From positions 1 to 42,657 of the forward strand of contig JAYTAD010000014.1 in the NCBI GenBank assembly GCA_043737705.1: a stretch of DNA of 42,657 bases. The letters are read 5' to 3'. Source of the stretch: Candidatus Saccharimonadota bacterium. GTDB taxonomy: Bacteria; Patescibacteriota; Saccharimonadia; Saccharimonadales; Saccharimonadaceae. This document shows, one piece after another, positions 231 through 21,749 of this stretch (position 1 is the stretch's first letter; each line of letters begins with the position of its first letter). A model generated the notes under the pieces. It was not told where the DNA came from. It did no database searches and saw only the letters and a program-made list of their open reading frames with translations. Both the position numbers and the translations under genes were made by a program.

Positions 231-1181
231 CTATATCTTTGCTAACAATTGACGCACTTCATCTGTAGTTTCAGTATGCATTAACTGTTCACGTAACTCG
301 CTGGCGCCAGGAAAATCACGGATATATATTTTGAAGAATCGCTTTAGCGGATTGAATTTACGCGGTTCTAGCTCGCGGGTGTAACGATCATGAAGGTCAA
401 GCTGAAAAAGTAACAGTTCAATGAGTTCGTCGCGGCTGTGCTCGCGTTTTTCAGTCTCGAATGCAAATGGATTATGAAAAACTCCACGGCCAATCATAAT
501 TCCGTCAACTCCATATTCGCGTACTAATTCTTCGCCGTGTTGACGGTCGCGAATATCGCCGTTAATCGTGAGAAGCGTTTGCGGGGCTATTTCATCTCGT
601 ATTTTTTTTATTTCTGGGATAAGTTCATGGTGTGCATCGACTTTGCACATTTCTTTGCGGGTACGTAAATGTATTGTCAAATTGGCAATATCTTGTTTCA
701 ATATGTACGTAATCCACTCGCGCCATTCATCGATGTTTGCATCACCCAGACGGGTTTTAACGCTGACCGGCAAGCCACTCGTCTTGACGGCTGCAATAAG
801 TTCACCAGCCAGCTTTGGCGTTCGAATAAGTGCGCTGCCCGACCCACCGCGAACGACTGCTTTATCCGGGCAGCCCATGTTTATGTCAATACCCCTATAC
901 CCCATATCGGCAAGTCCCTGTGCCATCAAGGCGAATTGATCAGGTCTATTACCCCAGATTTGGACTAATATTGGTTGCTCGTCAGCTGTAAAAGCCAGTC
1001 GGCCACGAGCACTATGAATCCCCTTCTCGCTGCAATAGCTGGCGGCATTGGTAAACTCAGTCACGAAGACGTCCGGACGAGCGGCGTGAGCAATCACGTG
1101 GCGAAAAACAATATCAGTCACCGCTTCCATCGGAGCGAGGATAAAAAAAGGTTTTGGCAGTTCATCCCAAAGGGTTGTCAT
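231..1181 (-). CDS. dus: tRNA-dihydrouridine synthase (Dus family, FMN TIM barrel)
   Basis: Taken from ORF 231..1301. Motifs seen: [17 protein letters not shown] (catalytic Cys), SVKTRLG, TIHLRT, INGDI and GIMIGRG. I trimmed the start to Met41 ([12 protein letters not shown]) because Dus proteins normally begin just before the LAPM motif. Starts at 1208 or 1301 remain possible. Confidence 0.85.
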
Positions 1182-1333
1182 CGTGCTACCTATTATTCCA
1201 TAATGCATAGTAAAATGTAAACCGCTCACATTGCTCACAACCGTAGTTATGAAAAATGGGAGTGGGACAGAGATAGTGATTTTTCTGACCCGGTGTTGCA
1301 TATGGCTTATGCAAGCTGCTCCGAGAACTCAGT

Positions 1334-1486
1334 TCAACGAACTTCCTTTTGGCCAGCTCGGCGGAGAGACTCATTGAGCTTTCCTCGAGCGGTTGCTTCG
1401 GCGGTTTGGAGGGTTCGATTGCTGGGATCTCGCTTGAGATCCTCTTTGGCCCTGTCCCAGGCTTTGCCTTGATTTCCTGCAGTCAC
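1334..1486 (-). CDS. Hypothetical 50-aa hydrophilic protein with a GTG start
   Basis: Not in the ORF track because it is under 60 aa and starts with GTG. The minus strand reads TAGGAGGTGATTTT-GTG, a perfect AGGAGGTGA Shine-Dalgarno 4 nt before the GTG. The translation is (M)TAGNQGKAWDRAKEDLKRDPSNRTLQTAEATARGKLNESLRRAGQKEVR, ending at TGA (1334-1336). No family was recognised, and the stretch could instead be part of the structured RNA. Confidence 0.4.
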   Translation of the reverse strand: MTAGNQGKAWDRAKEDLKRDPSNRTLQTAEATARGKLNESLRRAGQKEVR

Positions 1487-1872
1487 AAAATCACCTCCTA
1501 AGGATGAGTTGTGTCGGATGTAAAGAAATTAGACGAGCAGGCCGCCACGGTTGAGCCGTATCGGCTTACTTCACGTGGCGTGCATAGGTTCGTATTAAAG
1601 GTACGTAACCAGTGCATCAAGGCCTGCTCGTCGGCTTAAAGCGGCTCTGCCGTCAACAATCACGAAGTGTAGCGGTTACACGTGATTGGACGGCAGAGCC
1701 ATTCCGTTAGTCTTGGCTTGTGGCCACAATCGTCGTCAAGGAGAACCGAAAAACCAACGATTGTTTTACCGTAACGGAACATTTTCACTATCTCTGTCAA
1801 TGTGCAAACAGAGAGATTGTGAAAAACTGACACGATTATTCTTGTCGGTTTTTCACAACCTCAATCTGCGTA
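1487..1872 (-). ncRNA. Highly structured RNA or long 5' leader of unknown class
   Basis: A 424-bp non-coding gap in a compact genome holds at least five strong helices. These are 1819-1827/1848-1856 (9 bp), 1791-1797/1808-1814 (7 bp), nested 1702-1709/1772-1779 and 1726-1733/1757-1764 (8 bp each), 1643-1664/1681-1700 (20 bp with a 2-nt bulge) and 1532-1543/1621-1632 (12 bp perfect, closing a multi-hairpin junction). The strand is assigned from the promoter at 1879-1907. Confidence 0.4.
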
Positions 1873-1878
1873 TCGTTA

Positions 1879-1907
1879 ATAATATCAAAAAAAAGGTTAC
1901 GCGTCAA
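1879..1907 (-). promoter_or_regulatory. Sigma70-like promoter (TTGACG, 17-nt spacer, TATTAT)
   Basis: On the minus strand, TTGACG lies at 1907-1902 and TATTAT at 1884-1879 with an exact 17-nt spacer. It sits directly after the helicase stop codon (1911-1913). The predicted TSS is near 1872. Confidence 0.45.
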
Positions 1908-6770: not shown

Positions 6771-8459
6771 CTAAGGCGATATCACCAATATGGGAGCGGA
6801 GCTGCTGGTAGTCGAGTTGTTGCCGAGCTGGCCGTAGAAATTTGAGCCCCAGCAGTAGGCGCTGCCATCGGTAACGACGGCGCAGCTGTGTGCGTTAGAG
6901 CTCATCGATGAGATTGGCTCTCCTCCACTAAAGCCACTGACTGCTACGGGATTGGAGCTGTTAACAGTCGTGCTATTGCCGAGCTCGCCGAAGTTGTAAT
7001 CGGTTTGGATCCAGTTGTAATTTTCGTCCTCGTATCCATAGTAGGCGCCTCCCCAACAATAGGCTTTACCGGTGGTATCGATGACGCAGCTGTGGTTATC
7101 GCCCACGCTAATAGACACGAGTGTCTTACCGTTGAGGACGCCGGTAGACATGACCGCTATAGGAACAGCGCTCTGGATAGTCGTGCTGCCGAGCTGGCTC
7201 GTACCATCAGGATAACCGTAAATATTGTTTAGGCTACCGCCCCAGCAGTACGCTTTGCCATCGGAAGTAACGACACACACCTGGTCGTAGGCGGCCCCGA
7301 TGGATACAATCGTCTTGCCGCTTAGCGCGCCGCTGGTGTCGACGGCCGTAGGGATCAAGGAACTATATTGAGGATTTCCAAACTGCTTATTAAAGGCGTA
7401 ACCCCAACAATAGGCCTTGCCGCCCGAATCCAGCGCGCAGCTGTAAAAACCAGCTGTCGTCATCTTTGTAATCGCCTTGCCGCTCAGCACGCCGCTGGTA
7501 TCAACGGCTACCGGAACGGAGCTGCTGGTGGTCGAGTTGTTGCCGAGCTCTCCAGACACGTTCCGGCCCCAACAATAGGCTTTGCTGTCATACGTGACGG
7601 CGCACGTCTGACTGCCGCCGGCGGAAATAGAAGCAATCGCCTTGCCGCTCAGCACGCCGCTGGTATCAACGGCTACCGGAACGGAGCTGCTGGTGGTCGA
7701 GTTGTTGCCGAGCCCGCCATATCCGTTATCTCCCCAGCAGTAGGCTTTGCCGTTGGAGTCGACGGCACAGGACTTGGCGCCGCCAGTAGCTATCGACACA
7801 ATCGTCTTGCCGCTTAGCACGCCGCTGGTATCAACGGCTACCGGAACTTTGCTGTTGGTAGTCGAGTTATTACCGAGCTGAGCCTGTCCGTTATATCCCC
7901 AGCAGTAGGCTTTGCCGTTGGAGTCGACAGCACAGGTGTGGTACCTTGCGGCTGAAATTGTTGCCCAGACAGGTTTGGCGCCGGCGACGTAGCGCCGACT
8001 GGTCATTGATTTGATGGTCCCGGTAATCTCGTCTTTGTATTTCAAGGTCCACCCCAGACAGGCCGAACCGCTCGAGCAGGCCACGCTGCCATCCCCAACG
8101 TAGGCAAATATGTCCGCTTCGCCGCTATCACCGGTTAGATCGGTACATTTGATGGAGTTGGTGTCACCGCTAGCGCTATTGGGCGTCAGTAGTATATTCA
8201 CACTGAGCCCGGGCAGTATGGTCGTGGTGACGATCGCCGAGTCTTTGACGATATCCAGGCAGCCGGGATATTCGCCATTTTGGTCGTAGTACTTCTCTAG
8301 GGCTTCTGCCAGGATAGTCGTTTTGGACAAGCGTTGGGTATCCCGAGTGCTGGCTTGGTAACGGGTAAAGCTGGAGAATCCAAAGGTAGCGAGGATGCCA
8401 ATAATTGCTATAACTACCAAGACTTCGACTATAGTGAAGCCGTTAACGCTTTTTCTCAT
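6771..8459 (-). CDS. Type IV pilin-like protein fused to a multi-blade RCC1-like beta-propeller
   Basis: The leader MRKSVNG|FTIVEVLVVIAIIGILA is present. It is followed by about 7 repeats of the form KAYCWG-N-GQLGN-STT-S-VPVAVDTSGVLSGK-I, which is the RCC1 repeat pattern. Confidence 0.8.
   Translation of the reverse strand: MRKSVNGFTIVEVLVVIAIIGILATFGFSSFTRYQASTRDTQRLSKTTILAEALEKYYDQNGEYPGCLDIVKDSAIVTTTILPGLSVNILLTPNSASGDTNSIKCTDLTGDSGEADIFAYVGDGSVACSSGSACLGWTLKYKDEITGTIKSMTSRRYVAGAKPVWATISAARYHTCAVDSNGKAYCWGYNGQAQLGNNSTTNSKVPVAVDTSGVLSGKTIVSIATGGAKSCAVDSNGKAYCWGDNGYGGLGNNSTTSSSVPVAVDTSGVLSGKAIASISAGGSQTCAVTYDSKAYCWGRNVSGELGNNSTTSSSVPVAVDTSGVLSGKAITKMTTAGFYSCALDSGGKAYCWGYAFNKQFGNPQYSSLIPTAVDTSGALSGKTIVSIGAAYDQVCVVTSDGKAYCWGGSLNNIYGYPDGTSQLGSTTIQSAVPIAVMSTGVLNGKTLVSISVGDNHSCVIDTTGKAYCWGGAYYGYEDENYNWIQTDYNFGELGNSTTVNSSNPVAVSGFSGGEPISSMSSNAHSCAVVTDGSAYCWGSNFYGQLGNNSTTSSSAPILVISP
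7470..7713. repeat. Intragenic tandem repeat: two 79-bp identical copies 165 bp apart
   Basis: 7470-7548 is identical to 7635-7713 (AATCGCCTTGCCGCTCAGCACGCCGCTGGTATCAACGGCTACCGGAACGGAGCTGCTGGTGGTCGAGTTGTTGCCGAGC). More diverged copies start near 7310 and 7800. The period equals one 55-aa RCC1 blade. Confidence 0.9.
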
Positions 8460-8519: not shown

Positions 8520-9845
8520 CTACGGCATAACAAGGCGGTCGAGCACAACCAGGTGTTCGATGTGCGGTGTTCGTGGAAAAAAGTTGTATCCGCGGTGTGA
8601 TTTAACGCCGTAGGATTCGGCTAGCCGGGCAACGTCGCGGGCCTGGGTGACTGGATTACATGATAGGTAAATAATGCGATCAGGTTTGGTTTCGAGCAGT
8701 TTCTTGACGACGTCCTCATGCAGGCCGGCTCGCGGCGGGTCAACAATAATAGTTGCATCGCTCGTAATATACTCAAGCGCGCTCTCGCTTGGTGCCAAGA
8801 TTGCCTTGGCGGCTTTTTCGCGGTCAAGAGCGGTAATGTTACGCTTCATCTCGCGAACGGCATGCTCGTTTATTTCTACCATGGTGACGTTTTCACCACC
8901 AATAGTCAGACCAATCGTACCTACTCCGCTATACAGGTCAACCGCTGGTTTATCGGCACTCACCCACTGTTGCATGTCGCGCAAGGCTTGTTCGTAAACT
9001 GGAATATTGATTTGAAAAAACCCTTCAACAGCGTATGTGAACGGAACTTCGAGAATCGTATCGGTTAGATTCGTAGTTCCCCACGATTGCAGTCGTTCGG
9101 TAATAACACTGGCGGGGCTTTTTGGGTTAGAAAAAATCAGTTCAAAGCCAATAATGTTGCCGTTTTCCTTAAGTAATTCTAGTTCAGATCCGGTTAGTTG
9201 GACGAAGGCTTGGTCTTTGACGTAGAGCTGCAAGGCAACATTGCCCTTGGCGTCACAGCGGACCAGGACGGTTTTAAGCATAAAAGCGCGCAGGTCTGAC
9301 TTGGTACGCAACAAATCCCGAAGGGCTCGGGCAGCCTGGTTTATGCTAGGGTGCGCCAAACTAGTTCCGTTAACTGGGATTTTACCGTGAGTGCCACGCC
9401 TAAAAAAAGACAAATCGAGGCGGTCTTTTTCTTTGTCCCAGTACCAACTAAACTCAATCTTATTGCGGTATTCGTATTGTTTGTCGTCACTATAAACTTC
9501 GATGGTCTCGGGTAGGACGATGTCGTGTAATTCAAAAGCTTCTTCTATAAGAGCTGCCTTATAGTGCTGTTCGTCTTCGAAGCTCATTATCTGCCACGGA
9601 CTAGTTGAAAGATAACTCTCCTCATCACGCGGGATAACACGCTTGTCGCTCGGAATAATTACTTCCATAACGACACCTTCAGCCAAGTTTGATTTCTTTT
9701 TGGTGATTTGAACTTCAACGGTTTCGCCCGGAAGTCCGCCCCATACGAAAAGTTTGCGACCGCCTTCCAGGGTGCCAAGCGACTGCCCTCCTCCGACAAT
9801 TTTATCCAGCTTAACGTTAACTATAGGTAAAGATTTTTTGCTCAT
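8520..9845 (-). CDS. TRAM-domain RNA (uracil-5-)-methyltransferase (RlmD/RumA/TrmA family)
   Basis: Motifs seen: SAM motif DLYSGVGTIGL, DPPRAGL and the catalytic YLSCNP. There is an N-terminal TRAM-like beta barrel. TATACT lies 6 nt upstream of the ATG. Confidence 0.85.
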   Translation of the reverse strand: MSKKSLPIVNVKLDKIVGGGQSLGTLEGGRKLFVWGGLPGETVEVQITKKKSNLAEGVVMEVIIPSDKRVIPRDEESYLSTSPWQIMSFEDEQHYKAALIEEAFELHDIVLPETIEVYSDDKQYEYRNKIEFSWYWDKEKDRLDLSFFRRGTHGKIPVNGTSLAHPSINQAARALRDLLRTKSDLRAFMLKTVLVRCDAKGNVALQLYVKDQAFVQLTGSELELLKENGNIIGFELIFSNPKSPASVITERLQSWGTTNLTDTILEVPFTYAVEGFFQINIPVYEQALRDMQQWVSADKPAVDLYSGVGTIGLTIGGENVTMVEINEHAVREMKRNITALDREKAAKAILAPSESALEYITSDATIIVDPPRAGLHEDVVKKLLETKPDRIIYLSCNPVTQARDVARLAESYGVKSHRGYNFFPRTPHIEHLVVLDRLVMP

Positions 9846-9947: not shown

Positions 9948-10022
9948 TGGGATGTGGCCAAGTGGTAAGGCGCTGGTTTCTGGTACCAGTATTCGGGGGT
10001 TCGAATCCCTCCATCCCAGCCA
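9948..10022 (+). tRNA. tRNA-Gln (anticodon CUG), CCA encoded
   Basis: The cloverleaf folds by hand. Acceptor stem TGGGATG/CATCCCA has the U1-A72 pair typical of tRNA-Gln. The anticodon arm is CTGGT-TTCTGGT-ACCAG, the T arm is GGGGG-TTCGAAT-CCCTC, the discriminator is G, and CCA follows. Confidence 0.9.
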
Positions 10023-19948: not shown

Positions 19949-21466
19949 TTAATTTGAGCGTGAAAACAATCGAGATTTACGAGAGCTATCTTTGGAGCGA
20001 TCTGCAGTAAGCTTTTTTTTAGCAATTTCCTTTAAAGATTTTTCTTCATCTCGTTTTTTATCATTATAAGTTTTTTTCGGAGATTTGCCCTTTTCGAAAA
20101 GTTTATGACAACAAACGCAGATATCACAACCTCCAACAAGTGTTTTGTCGGACCACCAACTTAGGTTGCCGCGAGTCGGACAGTTTAGTATGCGGCAGAC
20201 GCCAATTTTTGGTTTACCAAAATTATCAGGTGTATTTTGAGCATTGAAGGCTCTTTGTATAATTGTAGATTCAGAAGTCGCGTCGGTTGTTGATACGGTT
20301 GAATTGCCTACGCTATATTCTGGACAACCATTGCTGTCGTAGGTTTCGCCGGAGGCCTTGGCCTCTCCACCGTAATGTGACAGAGCGGCGTAATTTGCCC
20401 CTTCCCCACTATCAGAACGCTCTAGGTCGCCCAAGAGCTTACTGTCGGCTTTGTCTATCACGCTGGCTATACTATGGATGACTTCGCTGATTATGTTGTG
20501 AGCCATTTCTTTGGATATGGCTTGACCCTCTTTTAGCCGATAGCTACTTCCGAACTTGTCGGTCACTCGCATTAGTTCGGCTGTCACAACACCTTGACTT
20601 GATGCAAGAGTTTTAATTGTATCTGTATAGATTGACGTCAGTTTGGGCTGACTTCGAACTTTTAACAAACCGTTCTTTTTCTCTTCGTTTTTATCTTTTT
20701 CGAGTCCAAAACTATACTGTTTATTATTCTGTTTTTCTAGTAATTGGTCATAGGTTGCCACGTAGTGATCGGTAAACTTAGCAGCTTTAGTTAAGTTGGG
20801 TGAATAGAATTCGTAGTTGTTTTGTAAGAGCTCTTGTTCAGTTGTCCCAGTTGTGGCATCGGCGTCTAGTTTTTTGCGCAGTTCATTAAATCGTTCCATG
20901 CTTGGGCTGTATAAAGACACAAAATGCCCCTCCAGCAAATCGTTACTCGTCTTTTGGTATATTCGAGAAATAGCTATTTTTTGTTTTCCAATTGGCAAAG
21001 ATTCAAATATCAAATAAGCACCAGTTGGGGCAGTTTTAAACCAAGCGGCTAATTTAGTCACTTCTTGGGCTTCTGTTTCTGCTCGCGCCAACTCATCTGC
21101 TATATCGGGATTTTTGACCGTTTCTGTTTTGAATATCTCTAAGTTTGTTTTAGTCATTGAATTCATTGAAACTCTATCTTTAACAGACACGAAATCATTG
21201 CCAGTAAACTCGAAACTGACATTATTTACGAAAGGAGTTTTTGGCAGGCGTTCAGCAATGTCTGTCTCTAAATCTTCTTTTATCCCAACGAGAGCCTTGT
21301 CGCCCTTTTCGAGATATTGGTACAAGTGTGTTAATGGATCATTGATGCCCAAATACTCTAGCCTAAGAGCCAGCCGTCCCATATACATAACATGTTCTTG
21401 ATTGATAGTTTCTGAGAGTGGACGCTTTGTCTCGAGCGTCAATCTTTTTAGTGTAGCTGTTTCCAA
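19949..21466 (-). CDS. Orphan 505-aa soluble protein with a C-terminal zinc-ribbon-like Cys cluster and a Lys-rich tail
   Basis: TTG start (21466-21464) with AGGGG 8 nt upstream. No TM helix or signal peptide. The C-terminus carries CRILNC-X17-CDICVCC followed by KKTYNDKKRDEEKSLKEIAKKK. No family recognised. Confidence 0.65.
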   Translation of the reverse strand: METATLKRLTLETKRPLSETINQEHVMYMGRLALRLEYLGINDPLTHLYQYLEKGDKALVGIKEDLETDIAERLPKTPFVNNVSFEFTGNDFVSVKDRVSMNSMTKTNLEIFKTETVKNPDIADELARAETEAQEVTKLAAWFKTAPTGAYLIFESLPIGKQKIAISRIYQKTSNDLLEGHFVSLYSPSMERFNELRKKLDADATTGTTEQELLQNNYEFYSPNLTKAAKFTDHYVATYDQLLEKQNNKQYSFGLEKDKNEEKKNGLLKVRSQPKLTSIYTDTIKTLASSQGVVTAELMRVTDKFGSSYRLKEGQAISKEMAHNIISEVIHSIASVIDKADSKLLGDLERSDSGEGANYAALSHYGGEAKASGETYDSNGCPEYSVGNSTVSTTDATSESTIIQRAFNAQNTPDNFGKPKIGVCRILNCPTRGNLSWWSDKTLVGGCDICVCCHKLFEKGKSPKKTYNDKKRDEEKSLKEIAKKKLTADRSKDSSRKSRLFSRSN

Positions 21467-21469
21467 TTT

Positions 21470-21615
21470 AATAACCCCTACTTACGAGCAGGGGCCATTA
21501 AAAATAACGACTACTCCTGCTCGGAAGATTTATAACTGTATCGGACTTAGCATTTCTGCCTTACCGTTGCGGCACAGTCCCGGATTTACACCGGGTTCCA
21601 GTATGTTTACTTGTT
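21470..21615 (-). promoter_or_regulatory. Cobalamin (B12) riboswitch, compact variant, plus SD-sequestering expression platform
   Basis: The minus-strand RNA reads ACUGGAACCCGGUGUAAAUCCGGGACUGUGCCGCAACGGUAAGGCAGAAAUGCUAAGUCCGAUACAGU. This fits the recalled consensus GGAA-N-CnGGUG-n-AAAUCCnG-n-CnG-n-CC-GCnACnGUAA and a B12-box-like AAGUCCGAUAC. Downstream, the helix CGAGCAGG/CCUGCUCG (21516-21523/21485-21492) competes with CCCCU (21490-21494) pairing to the SD AGGGG (21475-21479). Confidence 0.7.
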
Positions 21616-21749
21616 AATACTAATGAGTATGCGTTATTAGTGTCGCTTTGTCGAGTGGTAACGCTATATATAGCTATTTTTGTCTCAAAATTGTCTTCAA
21701 AGTGATCGATAGCTGCAGGACTGAGCCCTTTTTGCTATAATTCATAAAT

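What the first reader, a model, noticed from the sequence alone, without database searches (positions are those of the whole stretch)
1334..1907. Promoter-driven, ~385-nt multi-helix RNA of unknown class upstream of a perfectly SD-ed 50-aa ORF and dus
Immediately after the helicase stop codon there is a near-consensus promoter on the minus strand (TTGACG, 17-nt spacer, TATTAT). Five strong helices follow, including a 20-bp stem, a 12-bp perfect stem closing a three-way junction, and nested 8-bp stems. The region ends at UAGGAGGUGAUUUU-GUG, which opens a 50-codon ORF. The next gene on the strand is the tRNA-modifying enzyme Dus. A 424-bp non-coding, locally GC-enriched region is exceptional in this compact window. 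I could not match it to RNase P, tmRNA, SRP, 6S or the common riboswitch cores. It may be a new riboswitch or leader, a stand-alone ncRNA, or a dual-function RNA with a micro-protein.
Basis: seen in the sequence. Interest (0 to 1): 0.62.

Follow-up and report, generated by a model that had tools for sequence, protein, structure and literature searches.

The report
Hairpin-rich leader of small-protein mRNA
The structured RNA is real, but it is the long 5' leader of a self-contained 50-amino-acid protein gene whose two untranslated ends pair with each other, a cassette design conserved in many Saccharibacteria and closest to the Bacillus subtilis hbs mRNA, not a riboswitch and not a leader of dus.

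Summary
No Rfam family matches.

It is one transcription unit, about 1907-1222 on the minus strand:
- promoter
- 5' hairpin P1
- 14-nt motif C
- variable hairpin array S1-S3
- small hairpin holding the ribosome-binding site
- 50-aa ORF
- motif D, the perfect complement of C
- long terminator hairpin T

dus then has its own promoter.

Homologous units lie between the same helicase and dus in many Saccharibacteria. Six syntenic loci lack any spacer.

P1, C:D and T show compensatory changes. The ORF is under purifying selection (dN/dS about 0.11). The S1-S3 region is mosaic, poorly conserved and dispensable. The ORFs are swappable too. That argues against a riboswitch.

The closest known case is B. 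subtilis hbs mRNA, which has a 14-nt fully complementary 5'/3'-UTR interaction next to the terminator, a strong ribosome-binding site and a small protein.

I read the unit as an mRNA chassis that controls stability and processing. No RNA-seq data were available. I class it as a new variant of a known kind, of moderate interest.

The parts
1879..1907 (-). Sigma-70-type promoter of the unit: -35 TTGACG (1907-1902), 17-nt spacer, TG-extended -10 TATTAT (1884-1879). Predicted start near 1873-1871.
   Evidence: 10 of 12 matches, TG present. The same TTGAC...TGnTATAAT is conserved at this position in related loci.
1804..1869 (-). P1: 5'-terminal long hairpin of about 21-25 bp with bulges. Core arms are 1862-1848 and 1827-1813. 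It starts within a few nt of the predicted 5' end.
   Evidence: (I1). In an alignment of 11 units, 19 of 26 predicted pairs show compensatory changes, and many G.U pairs fit only this strand.
1799..1803 (-). 3' end of the conserved single-stranded junction between P1 and C (consensus GCACWUUGA; its GCAC is drawn into the base of P1 in the predicted folds).
   Evidence: Conserved across units.
1785..1798 (-). Motif C (GACAGAGAUAGUGA): 5' arm of the long-range helix.
   Evidence: Exact complement of 1266-1279. It pairs with D in both the MFE and the centroid of the full transcript. Covariation.
1701..1780 (-). S1: multi-branch stem. The base GUUCCGUUA/UAACGGAA is conserved as GUUCCG in many units.
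   Evidence: (I16, I18).
1643..1700 (-). S2: long hairpin made of a 12-bp perfect base, an 8-bp stem and an apical stem.
   Evidence: I4, I15. Against L001 there is a U-A to C-G double change in the base (GGCUCUG.../...CAGAGCC versus GGCCCUG.../...CAGGGCC).
1532..1632 (-). S3: 12-bp perfect stem closing a junction with two hairpins.
   Evidence: I3. Against L001 there is an A-U to G-C double change (GACGAGCAGGCC/GGCCUGCUCGUC versus GACGGGCAGGCC/GGCCUGCCCGUC). This stem is replaced by a different one in L161.
1487..1531 (-). G-poor linker and the ribosome-binding-site (SD) box. UCAUC (1507-1503) pairs with GGUGA (1495-1491) around the SD AGGAGGUGAU (1499-1490).
   Evidence: The UCACC...GGUGA mini-hairpin is conserved in most units and shows compensatory changes, for example CAUC/GAUG in L090 (SD regions listed).
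1334..1486 (-). 50-aa ORF with a GTG start (MTAGNQGKAWDRAKEDLK...). Real small-protein gene, predicted to be a helical hairpin.
   Evidence: dN/dS 0.11 against L161. 13 clusters at E <= 0.001, most about 50 aa. AlphaFold2 pLDDT 88.6 with two helices. No Pfam or NCBIfam hit.
1296..1314 (-). Small 3'-UTR hairpin (UUGCAUA-AGCC-AUAUGCAA) between the stop codon and D.
   Evidence: Conserved in L001 and L161. Other units have a GC-rich hairpin at the same position.
1266..1279 (-). Motif D (UCACUAUCUCUGUC): 3' arm of the long-range helix. It lies 54 nt after the stop codon and directly abuts hairpin T.
   Evidence: Duplex energy -22.3 kcal/mol.
1222..1265 (-). T: conserved long 3' hairpin. It acts as a terminator in relatives, where GUUUUUAUUU follows. 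In the window the tail UUUACAUUUUAC is weaker.
   Evidence: In an alignment of 22 units, 11 of 15 pairs show compensatory changes and U.G pairs are conserved. The window's T was not flagged by the simple terminator scan.
1179..1221 (-). Not part of the unit: the separate dus promoter (TTTACA 1221-1216, 18-nt spacer, TG-extended AATAAT 1197-1192) and the dus ATG at 1181, which leaves almost no leader.
   Evidence: The conserved TGAGATAAT lies 8-10 nt before the dus ATG in unit-bearing relatives.

Best explanation
The region is the 5' untranslated leader of a self-contained small-protein transcription unit that sits between the helicase and dus in many Saccharibacteria.

The predicted transcript runs from about 1872 to about 1215 on the minus strand. 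It starts with a long hairpin (P1) and ends with a long terminator hairpin (T). A 14-nt sequence just after P1 (C) pairs perfectly with a 14-nt sequence just before T (D). This pairing closes the leader and the ORF into a loop and joins P1, C:D and T in one junction.

Inside the loop are three elements:
- a variable array of very stable hairpins (S1-S3);
- a G-poor linker with an exceptionally strong ribosome-binding site held in a small hairpin;
- a 50-aa ORF that ends about 50 nt before D, so terminating ribosomes should not open C:D.

I infer that this frame works like the B. subtilis hbs mRNA. Hairpins at both ends and the 5'/3' pairing limit access of ribonucleases to the leader and the 3' end. 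The ribosome bound at the strong site protects the coding part. The result would be a stable, heavily translated small-protein mRNA whose decay or maturation is set by whether C:D is formed.

Shown here: the parts, their conservation, the covariation of P1, C:D and T, the coding status of the ORF, the independence from dus, and the modular, variable nature of S1-S3 and of the ORF.

Inferred: that the RNA is made as drawn, that C:D forms in vivo, and that its role is control of stability and processing.
For: Architecture and fold:
- The MFE and the centroid of the 664-nt transcript both contain P1, C:D, S1-S3 and T, with z = -11.6.

C:D pairing:
- Perfect 10-16-bp complements lie at the homologous position in 19 units, plus L161.
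- 12 of 17 pairs change on both sides, and 0 of 500 shuffles reach the observed covariation.
- Duplex energies run from -17 to -27 kcal/mol.
- 21 more distant helicase-dus spacers contain no long-range perfect repeat of 13 nt or more.

P1 and T are RNA on this strand:
- P1: 19 of 26 pairs are compensatory. T: 11 of 15.
- Their G.U and U.G pairs would be A.C mismatches on the other strand.
- Loops in the leaders are G-poor (234 G against 721 C).

The ORF is coding:
- dN/dS is 0.11, and the family keeps a length of about 50 aa.
- The spacing from the stop codon to D is 41-67 nt in 12 units.

Independence from dus:
- dus has its own promoter.
- 6 of 52 syntenic loci have a helicase-dus gap under 35 nt.
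- One metagenome contig joins helicase and dus directly.

Known precedent:
- hbs mRNA has a 14-nt fully complementary sequence just downstream of a 5' hairpin and just upstream of the terminator (-19 kcal/mol).
- It also has a strong ribosome-binding site. Its pairing restricts RNase Y cleavage, and this was proven with compensatory mutants (PMC5737220).
Against: - No transcript data: no RNA run holding this or a related unit could be listed. The start, the end, any processing and the pairing in vivo are therefore all predictions.
- In the window, hairpin T has a weak U tail and was not flagged as a terminator, so some read-through into dus is possible.
- C:D contains no G.U pair in about 20 units, whereas the leader helices have 7.8%. 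That is unusual for a helix kept only by RNA-level selection and leaves room for a DNA-level or enzyme-specific constraint.
- The model does not explain why the leader carries a 250-nt variable hairpin array, or why some relatives carry tRNA-like elements there.
- Whether this organism has RNase Y, J or III was not checked.
Confidence: 0.6

Rival explanations
1. Processing-stem or dual-function RNA. C:D, stacked on P1 and T, is an RNase III-type processing site like the stems that flank rRNAs. The hairpin array, and the tRNA-like elements in relatives, are released as stable non-coding RNAs with a role of their own, while the ORF is a co-transcribed passenger.
For: - P1, T and the S stems are all dsRNA helices of about 12-25 bp, and C:D is strictly Watson-Crick.
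- tRNA genes or tRNA-like elements lie inside homologous units. Three have abnormal anticodon loops: L135, L162 and L103. They imply RNase P or RNase Z cuts within the transcript.
- The leaders of most relatives carry unpaired C-rich loops: 29 unpaired C4+ runs against 2 G4+ runs. Such loops are used by some sRNAs to bind ribosome-binding sites; this last point is my own knowledge.
Against: - The array is not conserved between close relatives (52% against L161) and is absent from mini-units. A functional ncRNA would be expected to be the conserved part.
- The window's leader has no C4+ run and no tRNA-like element.
- There are no data on processing.
Confidence: 0.17
2. Riboswitch or other ligand- or protein-sensing cis-regulatory leader. 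S1-S3 form an aptamer that controls transcription or translation of the ORF.
For: - The leader is long and highly structured and sits before a ribosome-binding site.
- S3 is followed by a U-rich stretch that the scan flagged as terminator-like.
- Some junction sequences are shared between the window and L001, and a linker motif (AAxUUUCCCAAACUG) is shared among L083, L089, L090 and L091.
Against: - No conserved core: the array is replaced in L161 although the ORF is kept. Across units the leader runs from 15 to 689 nt between C and the start codon.
- ORF families occur both with and without the array (L014 and L085), and one leader serves two ORF families (L090 and L091).
- The U-rich tail after S3 is not conserved.
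- The ribosome-binding site is not sequestered by the array in any predicted fold.
- No Rfam match.
Confidence: 0.07
3. DNA-level element. C and D are inverted repeats of an invertible segment, a mobile insertion cassette or a recombination cassette, and their perfect complementarity reflects DNA recombination rather than RNA pairing.
For: - C and D are strictly Watson-Crick in every unit.
- The interior is mosaic and is swapped between strains. L090 and L091 differ only in the ORF cassette, a leaf-litter contig shows the swap, and contigs in the source sample share P1, C and D with a different interior.
Against: - The repeats sit just inside the transcript ends, after the 5' hairpin and before the terminator, as expected for an RNA function.
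- Every unit examined has the ORF in the promoter's direction, and no strand-changing joint was seen in eight metagenome runs. Those data are contigs only, so this is weak.
- There is a single copy in the 42.6-kb window, and the unit always lies at the same locus.
- I saw no target-site duplication at the C and D ends in the sequence.
- The arm sequences differ between lineages while staying complementary. Direct pairing explains that more simply than a co-evolving protein site.
Confidence: 0.07
4. Leader or regulator of dus: the structured RNA controls the downstream tRNA-dihydrouridine synthase gene.
For: - The unit always lies directly upstream of dus.
- The window's hairpin T has a weak U tail, so read-through is conceivable.
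- tRNA-like elements occur in related units.
Against: - In most relatives T is a strong terminator followed by GUUUUUAUUU.
- dus has its own conserved extended -10 box 8-10 nt before the ATG.
- Relatives without the unit couple dus directly to the helicase.
- Further genes or units can lie between the unit and dus (L082, L085, L135, L140).
Confidence: 0.04

Closest known systems
Bacillus subtilis hbs mRNA 5'/3'-UTR long-range interaction (Braun, Durand and Condon 2017, PMC5737220)
   Same: - Structured 5' UTR with hairpins.
[quoted passage not shown]
- A very strong ribosome-binding site.
- A small protein product.

In hbs the pairing restricts RNase Y cleavage of the leader, and the initiating ribosome blocks RNase J1.
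   Different: - No sequence homology, and a different phylum.
- The product is not HU.
- Here the design is a conserved, locus-specific chassis that serves at least four unrelated small-ORF families.
- It carries a large variable hairpin array, and sometimes tRNA-like elements, between the pairing site and the ribosome-binding site.
- There is no experimental evidence here.
Staphylococcus aureus icaR mRNA 3'-UTR/5'-UTR pairing (Ruiz de los Mozos et al. 2013, PMC3868564)
   Same: [quoted passage not shown] It creates a double-stranded region that is an RNase III substrate.
   Different: In icaR the 3' UTR pairs with the ribosome-binding site itself and represses translation. Here D pairs with C, far upstream of that site. 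D-to-site pairing is no better than for shuffled D sequences (mean z = -0.35).
Dual-function RNAs that encode small proteins (S. aureus RNAIII/hld, B. subtilis SR1/SR1P; from my own knowledge)
   Same: A long RNA with many hairpins, helices that bring distant parts together, and a translated micro-ORF.
   Different: Those RNAs have conserved trans-acting pairing domains. Here the non-coding hairpin array is the least conserved part, and no target-pairing domain is evident in the window's copy.
rRNA-operon processing stems and phage T7 RNase III sites (from my own knowledge)
   Same: Long-range complementary sequences that flank a functional RNA and form an RNase III substrate which defines the mature ends.
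   Different: Those stems are longer and imperfect and flank stable RNAs or several genes. Here a 10-16-bp perfect helix flanks a leader plus one micro-ORF. Cleavage has not been tested.

Membership tests
Any described RNA family (RNase P, tmRNA, SRP, 6S, T-box, riboswitches, OLE/GOLLD/ROOL/raiA, YrlA, 6C and others) | Match to the family covariance model | tested here: not met
   Rfam 15 cmscan found nothing in 1150-2000 at gathering thresholds, and only chance-level microRNA, CRISPR-repeat and snoRNA matches at E <= 10. In related units only tRNA models matched. ARAGORN found no tmRNA.
Riboswitch | Aptamer core with conserved sequence and structure across lineages | tested here: not met
   S1-S3 is 52% identical to L161 with an 81-nt length difference, while the frame is 84% and the ORF 78% identical. 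L161 has a different stem set. Across units the leader runs from 15 to 689 nt.
Riboswitch | Association with a coherent gene function, and an expression platform that competes with the aptamer | tested here: not met
   At least four unrelated small-ORF families follow the same frame. No conserved terminator or ribosome-binding-site sequestration is linked to S1-S3.
hbs-type mRNA with 5'/3'-UTR long-range interaction | 5' arm just downstream of a 5'-UTR hairpin; fully complementary 3' arm of about 14 nt just upstream of the terminator | tested here: met
   C lies at 1798-1785, 5 nt after P1. D lies at 1279-1266 and abuts T. The 14 bp are perfect, at -22.3 kcal/mol. The geometry in hbs is described.
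hbs-type mRNA with 5'/3'-UTR long-range interaction | Strong ribosome-binding site in front of a small ORF | tested here: met
   AGGAGGUGAU is a 10-nt match to the complement of the usual 16S rRNA 3' end (my own knowledge of that sequence). It lies 4 nt before the GUG start and is conserved across units. The ORF is coding.
hbs-type mRNA with 5'/3'-UTR long-range interaction | Pairing maintained as a functional constraint (in hbs shown with compensatory mutants) | tested here: met
   The natural equivalent is seen here: 12 of 17 pairs show double-sided changes, and 0 of 500 shuffles reach the observed score. This is comparative evidence, not experimental.
hbs-type mRNA with 5'/3'-UTR long-range interaction | The pairing modulates RNase Y and RNase J1 action and mRNA stability | not testable with these tools
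   No RNA data are available. The ribonuclease set of the organism was not examined.
icaR-type 3'-UTR anti-SD pairing | The 3'-UTR motif pairs with the ribosome-binding-site region | tested here: not met
   D-to-site duplex energies are no better than for shuffled D sequences (mean z = -0.35 over 22 units). The two outliers are mini-units in which the tested window overlaps C itself.
Invertible DNA segment (inverton) | Both orientations of the segment between the inverted repeats occur | tested here: inconclusive
   Every unit examined is in one orientation. No strand-change joints were seen, but only assembled contigs could be laid.
MITE or mobile insertion cassette | Many copies at different loci, with terminal inverted repeats and target-site duplications | tested here: not met
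   There is one copy in the window. All homologues lie at the helicase-dus locus. I saw no duplication flanking C and D in the sequence.
Bacterial Y RNA (YrlA) | tRNA-like domain plus a Ro-binding stem formed by the 5' and 3' ends; encoded near rsr | tested here: not met
   No YrlA or Y RNA model match. The window's unit has no tRNA-like element. Here the transcript ends lie in P1 and T rather than pairing with each other. The neighbours are a helicase and dus; rsr was not searched for elsewhere.

The most novel reading that the evidence does not exclude
The helicase-dus spacer of Saccharibacteria holds a modular RNA chassis: promoter, P1 and C on one side, D and T on the other. Populations load this chassis with exchangeable cargo, namely unrelated micro-protein ORFs and exchangeable structured RNA modules, including tRNA mimics with non-decoding anticodon loops and hairpins with C-rich loops.

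In this reading C:D is a processing stem and the leader modules are released as stable RNAs with functions of their own, for example decoys for tRNA-modifying or RNA-processing enzymes, or regulators that bind ribosome-binding sites. The locus would then be a hypervariable RNA and micro-protein expression site in an episymbiotic bacterium.
Probability: 0.15. Interest if true: 0.75.

Novelty: new variant of a known kind. Interest (0 to 1): 0.5.

Why it matters
Only a few bacterial mRNAs are known to pair their 5' and 3' untranslated regions; hbs and icaR are the ones retrieved here, and each was found as a single case.

Here the same design is a conserved frame, supported by covariation, in about 20 diverged lineages of an uncultivated-majority phylum. 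It serves several unrelated micro-protein families and is exchanged as modules between strains.

That would give natural compensatory evidence that end-to-end mRNA pairing is a selectable, reusable expression device. It would also provide a compact chassis to test in reporter systems and point to a set of unannotated micro-proteins. These include the 50-aa helical hairpin here and CxxCxGxG zinc-ribbon peptides the size of anti-TRAP in relatives.

For genome annotation, it shows that this exceptional non-coding gap is a small gene with long untranslated regions, not a new riboswitch.

Tried and rejected
**Known RNA families**
- Rfam at gathering thresholds and at permissive E-values, on the window and on 20 related loci, gave nothing but tRNAs.
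- ARAGORN found no tmRNA.

**Homologue search**
- A word-index search with the 50-aa ORF found only one homologue.
- The exhaustive HMMER search then found 13 clusters at E <= 0.001.

**Function of the small proteins**
- Pfam and NCBIfam gave no significant hit for any small-ORF family. There were only sub-threshold DnaJ CxxCxGxG and anti-TRAP matches for the Cys-rich family.
- The AlphaFold2 model of the 50-aa protein is a confident helical hairpin.
- Foldseek against PDB gave only generic helical hairpins with E > 0.8, so there is no functional lead.

**Pairing and copy number**
- An icaR-like idea, that D acts as an anti-SD element pairing with the ribosome-binding site, was rejected. The pairing is no better than for shuffled sequences.
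- Searches with profiles of the 5' and 3' modules found no further copy in the window.

**Inversion and transcription**
- No strand-change joints were seen, but only contigs were available.
- No RNA runs could be listed for the window's unit or for L090's.

**Other**
- Literature searches for a described Saccharibacteria or Patescibacteria RNA motif of this kind found nothing relevant.
- Retron, integron attC, type I and type III toxin-antitoxin, and group I and II intron readings were considered. They were dropped on anatomy alone: there is no reverse transcriptase, integrase, tandem repeats, hydrophobic peptide or intron core.
Full report
**1. Observation**

- The upstream gene on the minus strand is a UvrD-type helicase with a PD-(D/E)XK nuclease domain. 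Its stop codon is at 1913-1911.
- It is followed by TTGACG, a 17-nt spacer and a TG-extended TATTAT (1907-1879).
- A 424-nt non-coding stretch then leads to UAGGAGGUGAUUUU-GUG and a 50-codon ORF at 1486-1334.
- The next gene is Dus (PF01207, E = 1e-52).
- The region folds far better than shuffled sequence: z = -10.2 for 1480-1880 and z = -11.6 for the whole predicted transcript.
- GC enrichment is modest.
- No Rfam family matches at gathering or at permissive thresholds, and there is no tmRNA.

**2. The feature is larger than reported**

Related loci were fetched with the Dus protein from species genomes and from metagenomes. The organism is a member of the Saccharibacteria (TM7). The order helicase, spacer, dus recurs in 52 loci.

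In the spacer of the window and of about 20 diverged relatives, the same ordered frame is found:
- a promoter (TTGAC...TGnTATAAT);
- a long 5' hairpin, P1;
- a conserved junction (GCACWUUGA);
- a 10-16-nt motif C;
- a variable hairpin array;
- a G-poor linker and a very strong ribosome-binding site inside a small UCACC/GGUGA hairpin;
- a small ORF;
- a short 3' hairpin;
- motif D;
- a long conserved hairpin T, usually followed by GUUUUUAUUU.

In the window, D is at 1279-1266 and T at 1265-1222.

**3. C and D pair**

- D is the exact reverse complement of C in the window: 14 nt, 505 nt apart.
- In 19 units a perfect complement of 10-16 nt lies at the homologous place, although the sequence differs. 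Examples are GACAGAGAUAGUGA, GACAGGAAUAGC, GGCAGGAAUGGUA, GACAGAGAGAAUGAGA and GACAGGGAUG.
- On an anchored alignment of 20 units (these 19 plus L161), 12 of 17 pairs change on both sides. None of 500 column shuffles reaches the observed covariation, and sliding the partner destroys the signal.
- Duplex energies run from -17 to -27 kcal/mol.
- The MFE and the centroid of the window's full transcript both contain the helix.
- As a negative control, 21 more distant helicase-dus spacers of 680-1950 nt contain no long-range perfect repeat of 13 nt or more.

**4. P1 and T are RNA hairpins on this strand**

- P1: 19 of 26 predicted pairs show compensatory changes, with many G.U pairs.
- T: 11 of 15 pairs show compensatory changes, with two conserved U.G positions.
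- On the other strand these pairs would be A.C mismatches.
- Loops of the leaders are G-poor (234 G against 721 C).

One feature remains unexplained. C:D itself has no G.U pair in any unit, whereas the leader helices have 7.8%.

**5. The ORF is a gene**

- Between the window and L161 the ORF has pS = 0.68 and pN = 0.17, giving dN/dS of about 0.11.
- An exhaustive profile search finds 13 clusters at E <= 0.001, most about 50 aa long. They share the pattern MTAGNQGKAxDxAxEALKxxPxNxxLQ...ALNxSLxxAGQK.
- AlphaFold2 predicts a helical hairpin (pLDDT 88.6). Only generic structural neighbours were found.
- No Pfam or NCBIfam family matches.
- In 12 units the stop codon lies 41-67 nt before D. A terminating ribosome should therefore leave C:D intact.

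**6. The unit is independent of dus**

- Directly after T, the window has TTTACA, an 18-nt spacer and a TG-extended AATAAT that ends 10 nt before the dus ATG.
- Relatives with a unit have a conserved TGAGATAAT 8-10 nt before the ATG.
- Six syntenic loci have no spacer. In three of them (L081, L088, L131) the helicase end meets or overlaps the dus start.
- One soil contig joins helicase and dus with 19 nt in between.
- Some loci carry two or three units in tandem, or other genes between the unit and dus (L085, L140, L082, L135).

**7. The hairpin array is variable cargo, not an aptamer**

Identity between the window and two relatives, by segment:

| Relative | Frame (promoter to C) | Array S1-S3 | ORF |
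|---|---|---|---|
| L161 | 84% | 52%, with an 81-nt length difference and a different stem set | 78% |
| L001 | 89% | 71% | 65% |

- This is a mosaic pattern: one relative shares the ORF with the window, the other shares the array.
- L090 and L091 share the whole leader but carry ORFs of different families.
- A leaf-litter contig shows that same ORF swap within one habitat.
- Contigs in the source sample share P1, C and D with a different interior.
- Across units the distance from C to the start codon runs from 15 to 689 nt.
- The CTWCCPYTHRGAGG family occurs with the array in L014 and without it in L085.
- At least four small-ORF families use the frame:
  - the helical family of the window;
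  - a CxxCxGxG zinc-ribbon family with sub-threshold DnaJ and anti-TRAP similarity;
  - an NANHEAERQ family;
  - a CxWCCP family.
- All members of the CxxCxGxG family whose contigs could be fetched lie at the same helicase-dus site.
- Where the array is homologous, stems are kept by double changes. Between the window and L001 these are A-U to G-C in S3 and U-A to C-G in S2. The hairpins are therefore selected as hairpins, but no conserved core exists.

**8. Mechanism**

The geometry matches the B. subtilis hbs mRNA, the closest known case:
- a 14-nt sequence just downstream of a 5'-UTR hairpin is fully complementary to a sequence just upstream of the terminator (-19 kcal/mol);
- the ribosome-binding site is strong and the product is small;
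- compensatory mutants showed that the pairing restricts RNase Y cleavage of the leader;
- the initiating ribosome blocks RNase J1 (PMC5737220).

By analogy I propose the following.
- P1 and T cap the two ends of the transcript.
- C:D closes the transcript.
- The ribosome at the strong site protects the ORF.
- The result is a stable, heavily translated micro-protein mRNA whose maturation or decay depends on C:D.

This is inference. No RNA-seq run containing this unit or a related one could be listed.

An icaR-like variant, in which D pairs with the ribosome-binding site, was tested and rejected (PMC3868564).

**9. Rivals**

- A processing-stem or dual-function reading keeps some weight, about 0.17.
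  - All helices are dsRNA of about 12-25 bp, and C:D is strictly Watson-Crick.
  - Several related units contain tRNA genes or tRNA-like elements. Three have abnormal anticodon loops: L135, L162 and L103.
- A riboswitch (0.07) is disfavoured by section 7.
- A DNA-level inverted-repeat element (0.07) is disfavoured for three reasons:
  - the repeats sit just inside the transcript ends;
  - all units have one orientation;
  - the unit is single-copy and locus-specific.
  - Only contigs could be examined for inversion.
- A dus leader (0.04) is disfavoured by section 6.

**10. Verdict**

- It is the leader of a conserved, modular, end-pairing micro-protein mRNA.
- I class it as a new variant of a known kind (hbs-type 5'/3'-UTR interaction). 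As far as Rfam 15 and the paper searches show, it has not been described.
- Interest is moderate. The covariation-backed end pairing, the module swapping and the tRNA-like inserts are worth an experiment. The window's own copy shows no sign of ligand sensing or of a new ncRNA class.

Noticed in passing
window 21491-21651 (-): Candidate cobalamin riboswitch just above the Rfam gathering score (32.3 against 31.5 bits, E = 1.3e-4). It lies directly upstream of a 505-aa ORF (19949-21466, minus strand) that has no Pfam domain.
   Followed up: partly
L135:1377-1451; L162:333-403; L103:2282-2355; L002:3844-3914; L165:2378-2458: tRNA genes or tRNA-like elements lie inside or next to homologous units. 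ARAGORN calls three of them tRNA-??? with abnormal anticodon loops: a 4-nt anticodon in L135 and 2-nt anticodon calls in L162 and L103. By eye the last two have a tetraloop in place of the anticodon loop, GAAA in L103. D- and T-arms are canonical. The window's own unit has none.
   Followed up: partly
window 231-1181 (-) and loci L010-L080: The window's Dus protein is 62-69% identical to Dus proteins of Bacillales (Halobacillus, Paenibacillus, Neobacillus and others). That is nearly as close as many Saccharibacteria copies and hints at horizontal transfer.
   Followed up: no
window 1179-1221 (-); related loci just upstream of dus: dus appears to be nearly leaderless. An extended -10 box (TGGAATAAT here, TGAGATAAT in relatives) ends 8-10 nt before the ATG. 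In relatives without the unit, the helicase stop overlaps the dus ATG (ATAATG).
   Followed up: partly
leaders of L001, L008, L014, L044, L089, L090, L091, L097, L161, L163: The apical loops of the leader hairpins are often runs of C (CCCCC, CCUCCCC). There are 29 mostly unpaired C4+ runs against 2 G4+ runs. This recalls the C-rich loops of some sRNAs that bind ribosome-binding sites. The window's leader has none.
   Followed up: partly
L090:2152-2413 against run X15; window 1278-1771 against runs X1 and X2: Metagenome contigs from the same habitats carry the same frame with a different interior. In X15, 287 other letters replace 260; in X1 and X2, 414 replace 492. Cassette replacement is therefore polymorphic within populations.
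   Followed up: partly
L087, L090, L006, L162-L166 (small ORFs): A family of 51-55-aa peptides, MFKSEDQKRQ...CxKCNGTGTVGIGGRGA...CGxCGGSG, carries two CxxCxGxG motifs. It has sub-threshold similarity to the DnaJ zinc domain and to anti-TRAP (E about 0.005-0.02). All members whose contigs could be fetched lie at the helicase-dus site.
   Followed up: partly
L135:3767-3821 (-): Sub-threshold match to the type III hammerhead ribozyme: 34.3 bits against a gathering score of 48.5, E = 0.0013.
   Followed up: no
window 1334-1486 (-): The predicted helical hairpin of the 50-aa protein has a conserved (D/N)P(S/G)(N/D) turn. Its best, non-significant, Foldseek neighbours include type III secretion needle protomers, which have a similar PSDP turn (E of 1.7 or worse, query-normalised TM-score up to 0.80). 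This is probably a generic resemblance.
   Followed up: partly
window 6771-8459 (-) and 8520-9845 (-): A pilin-like protein (N-terminal methylation motif plus RCC1 repeats) and a TRAM/tRNA(U5)-methyltransferase-family gene lie a few kb upstream. tRNA-Gln is at 9948-10022.
   Followed up: no
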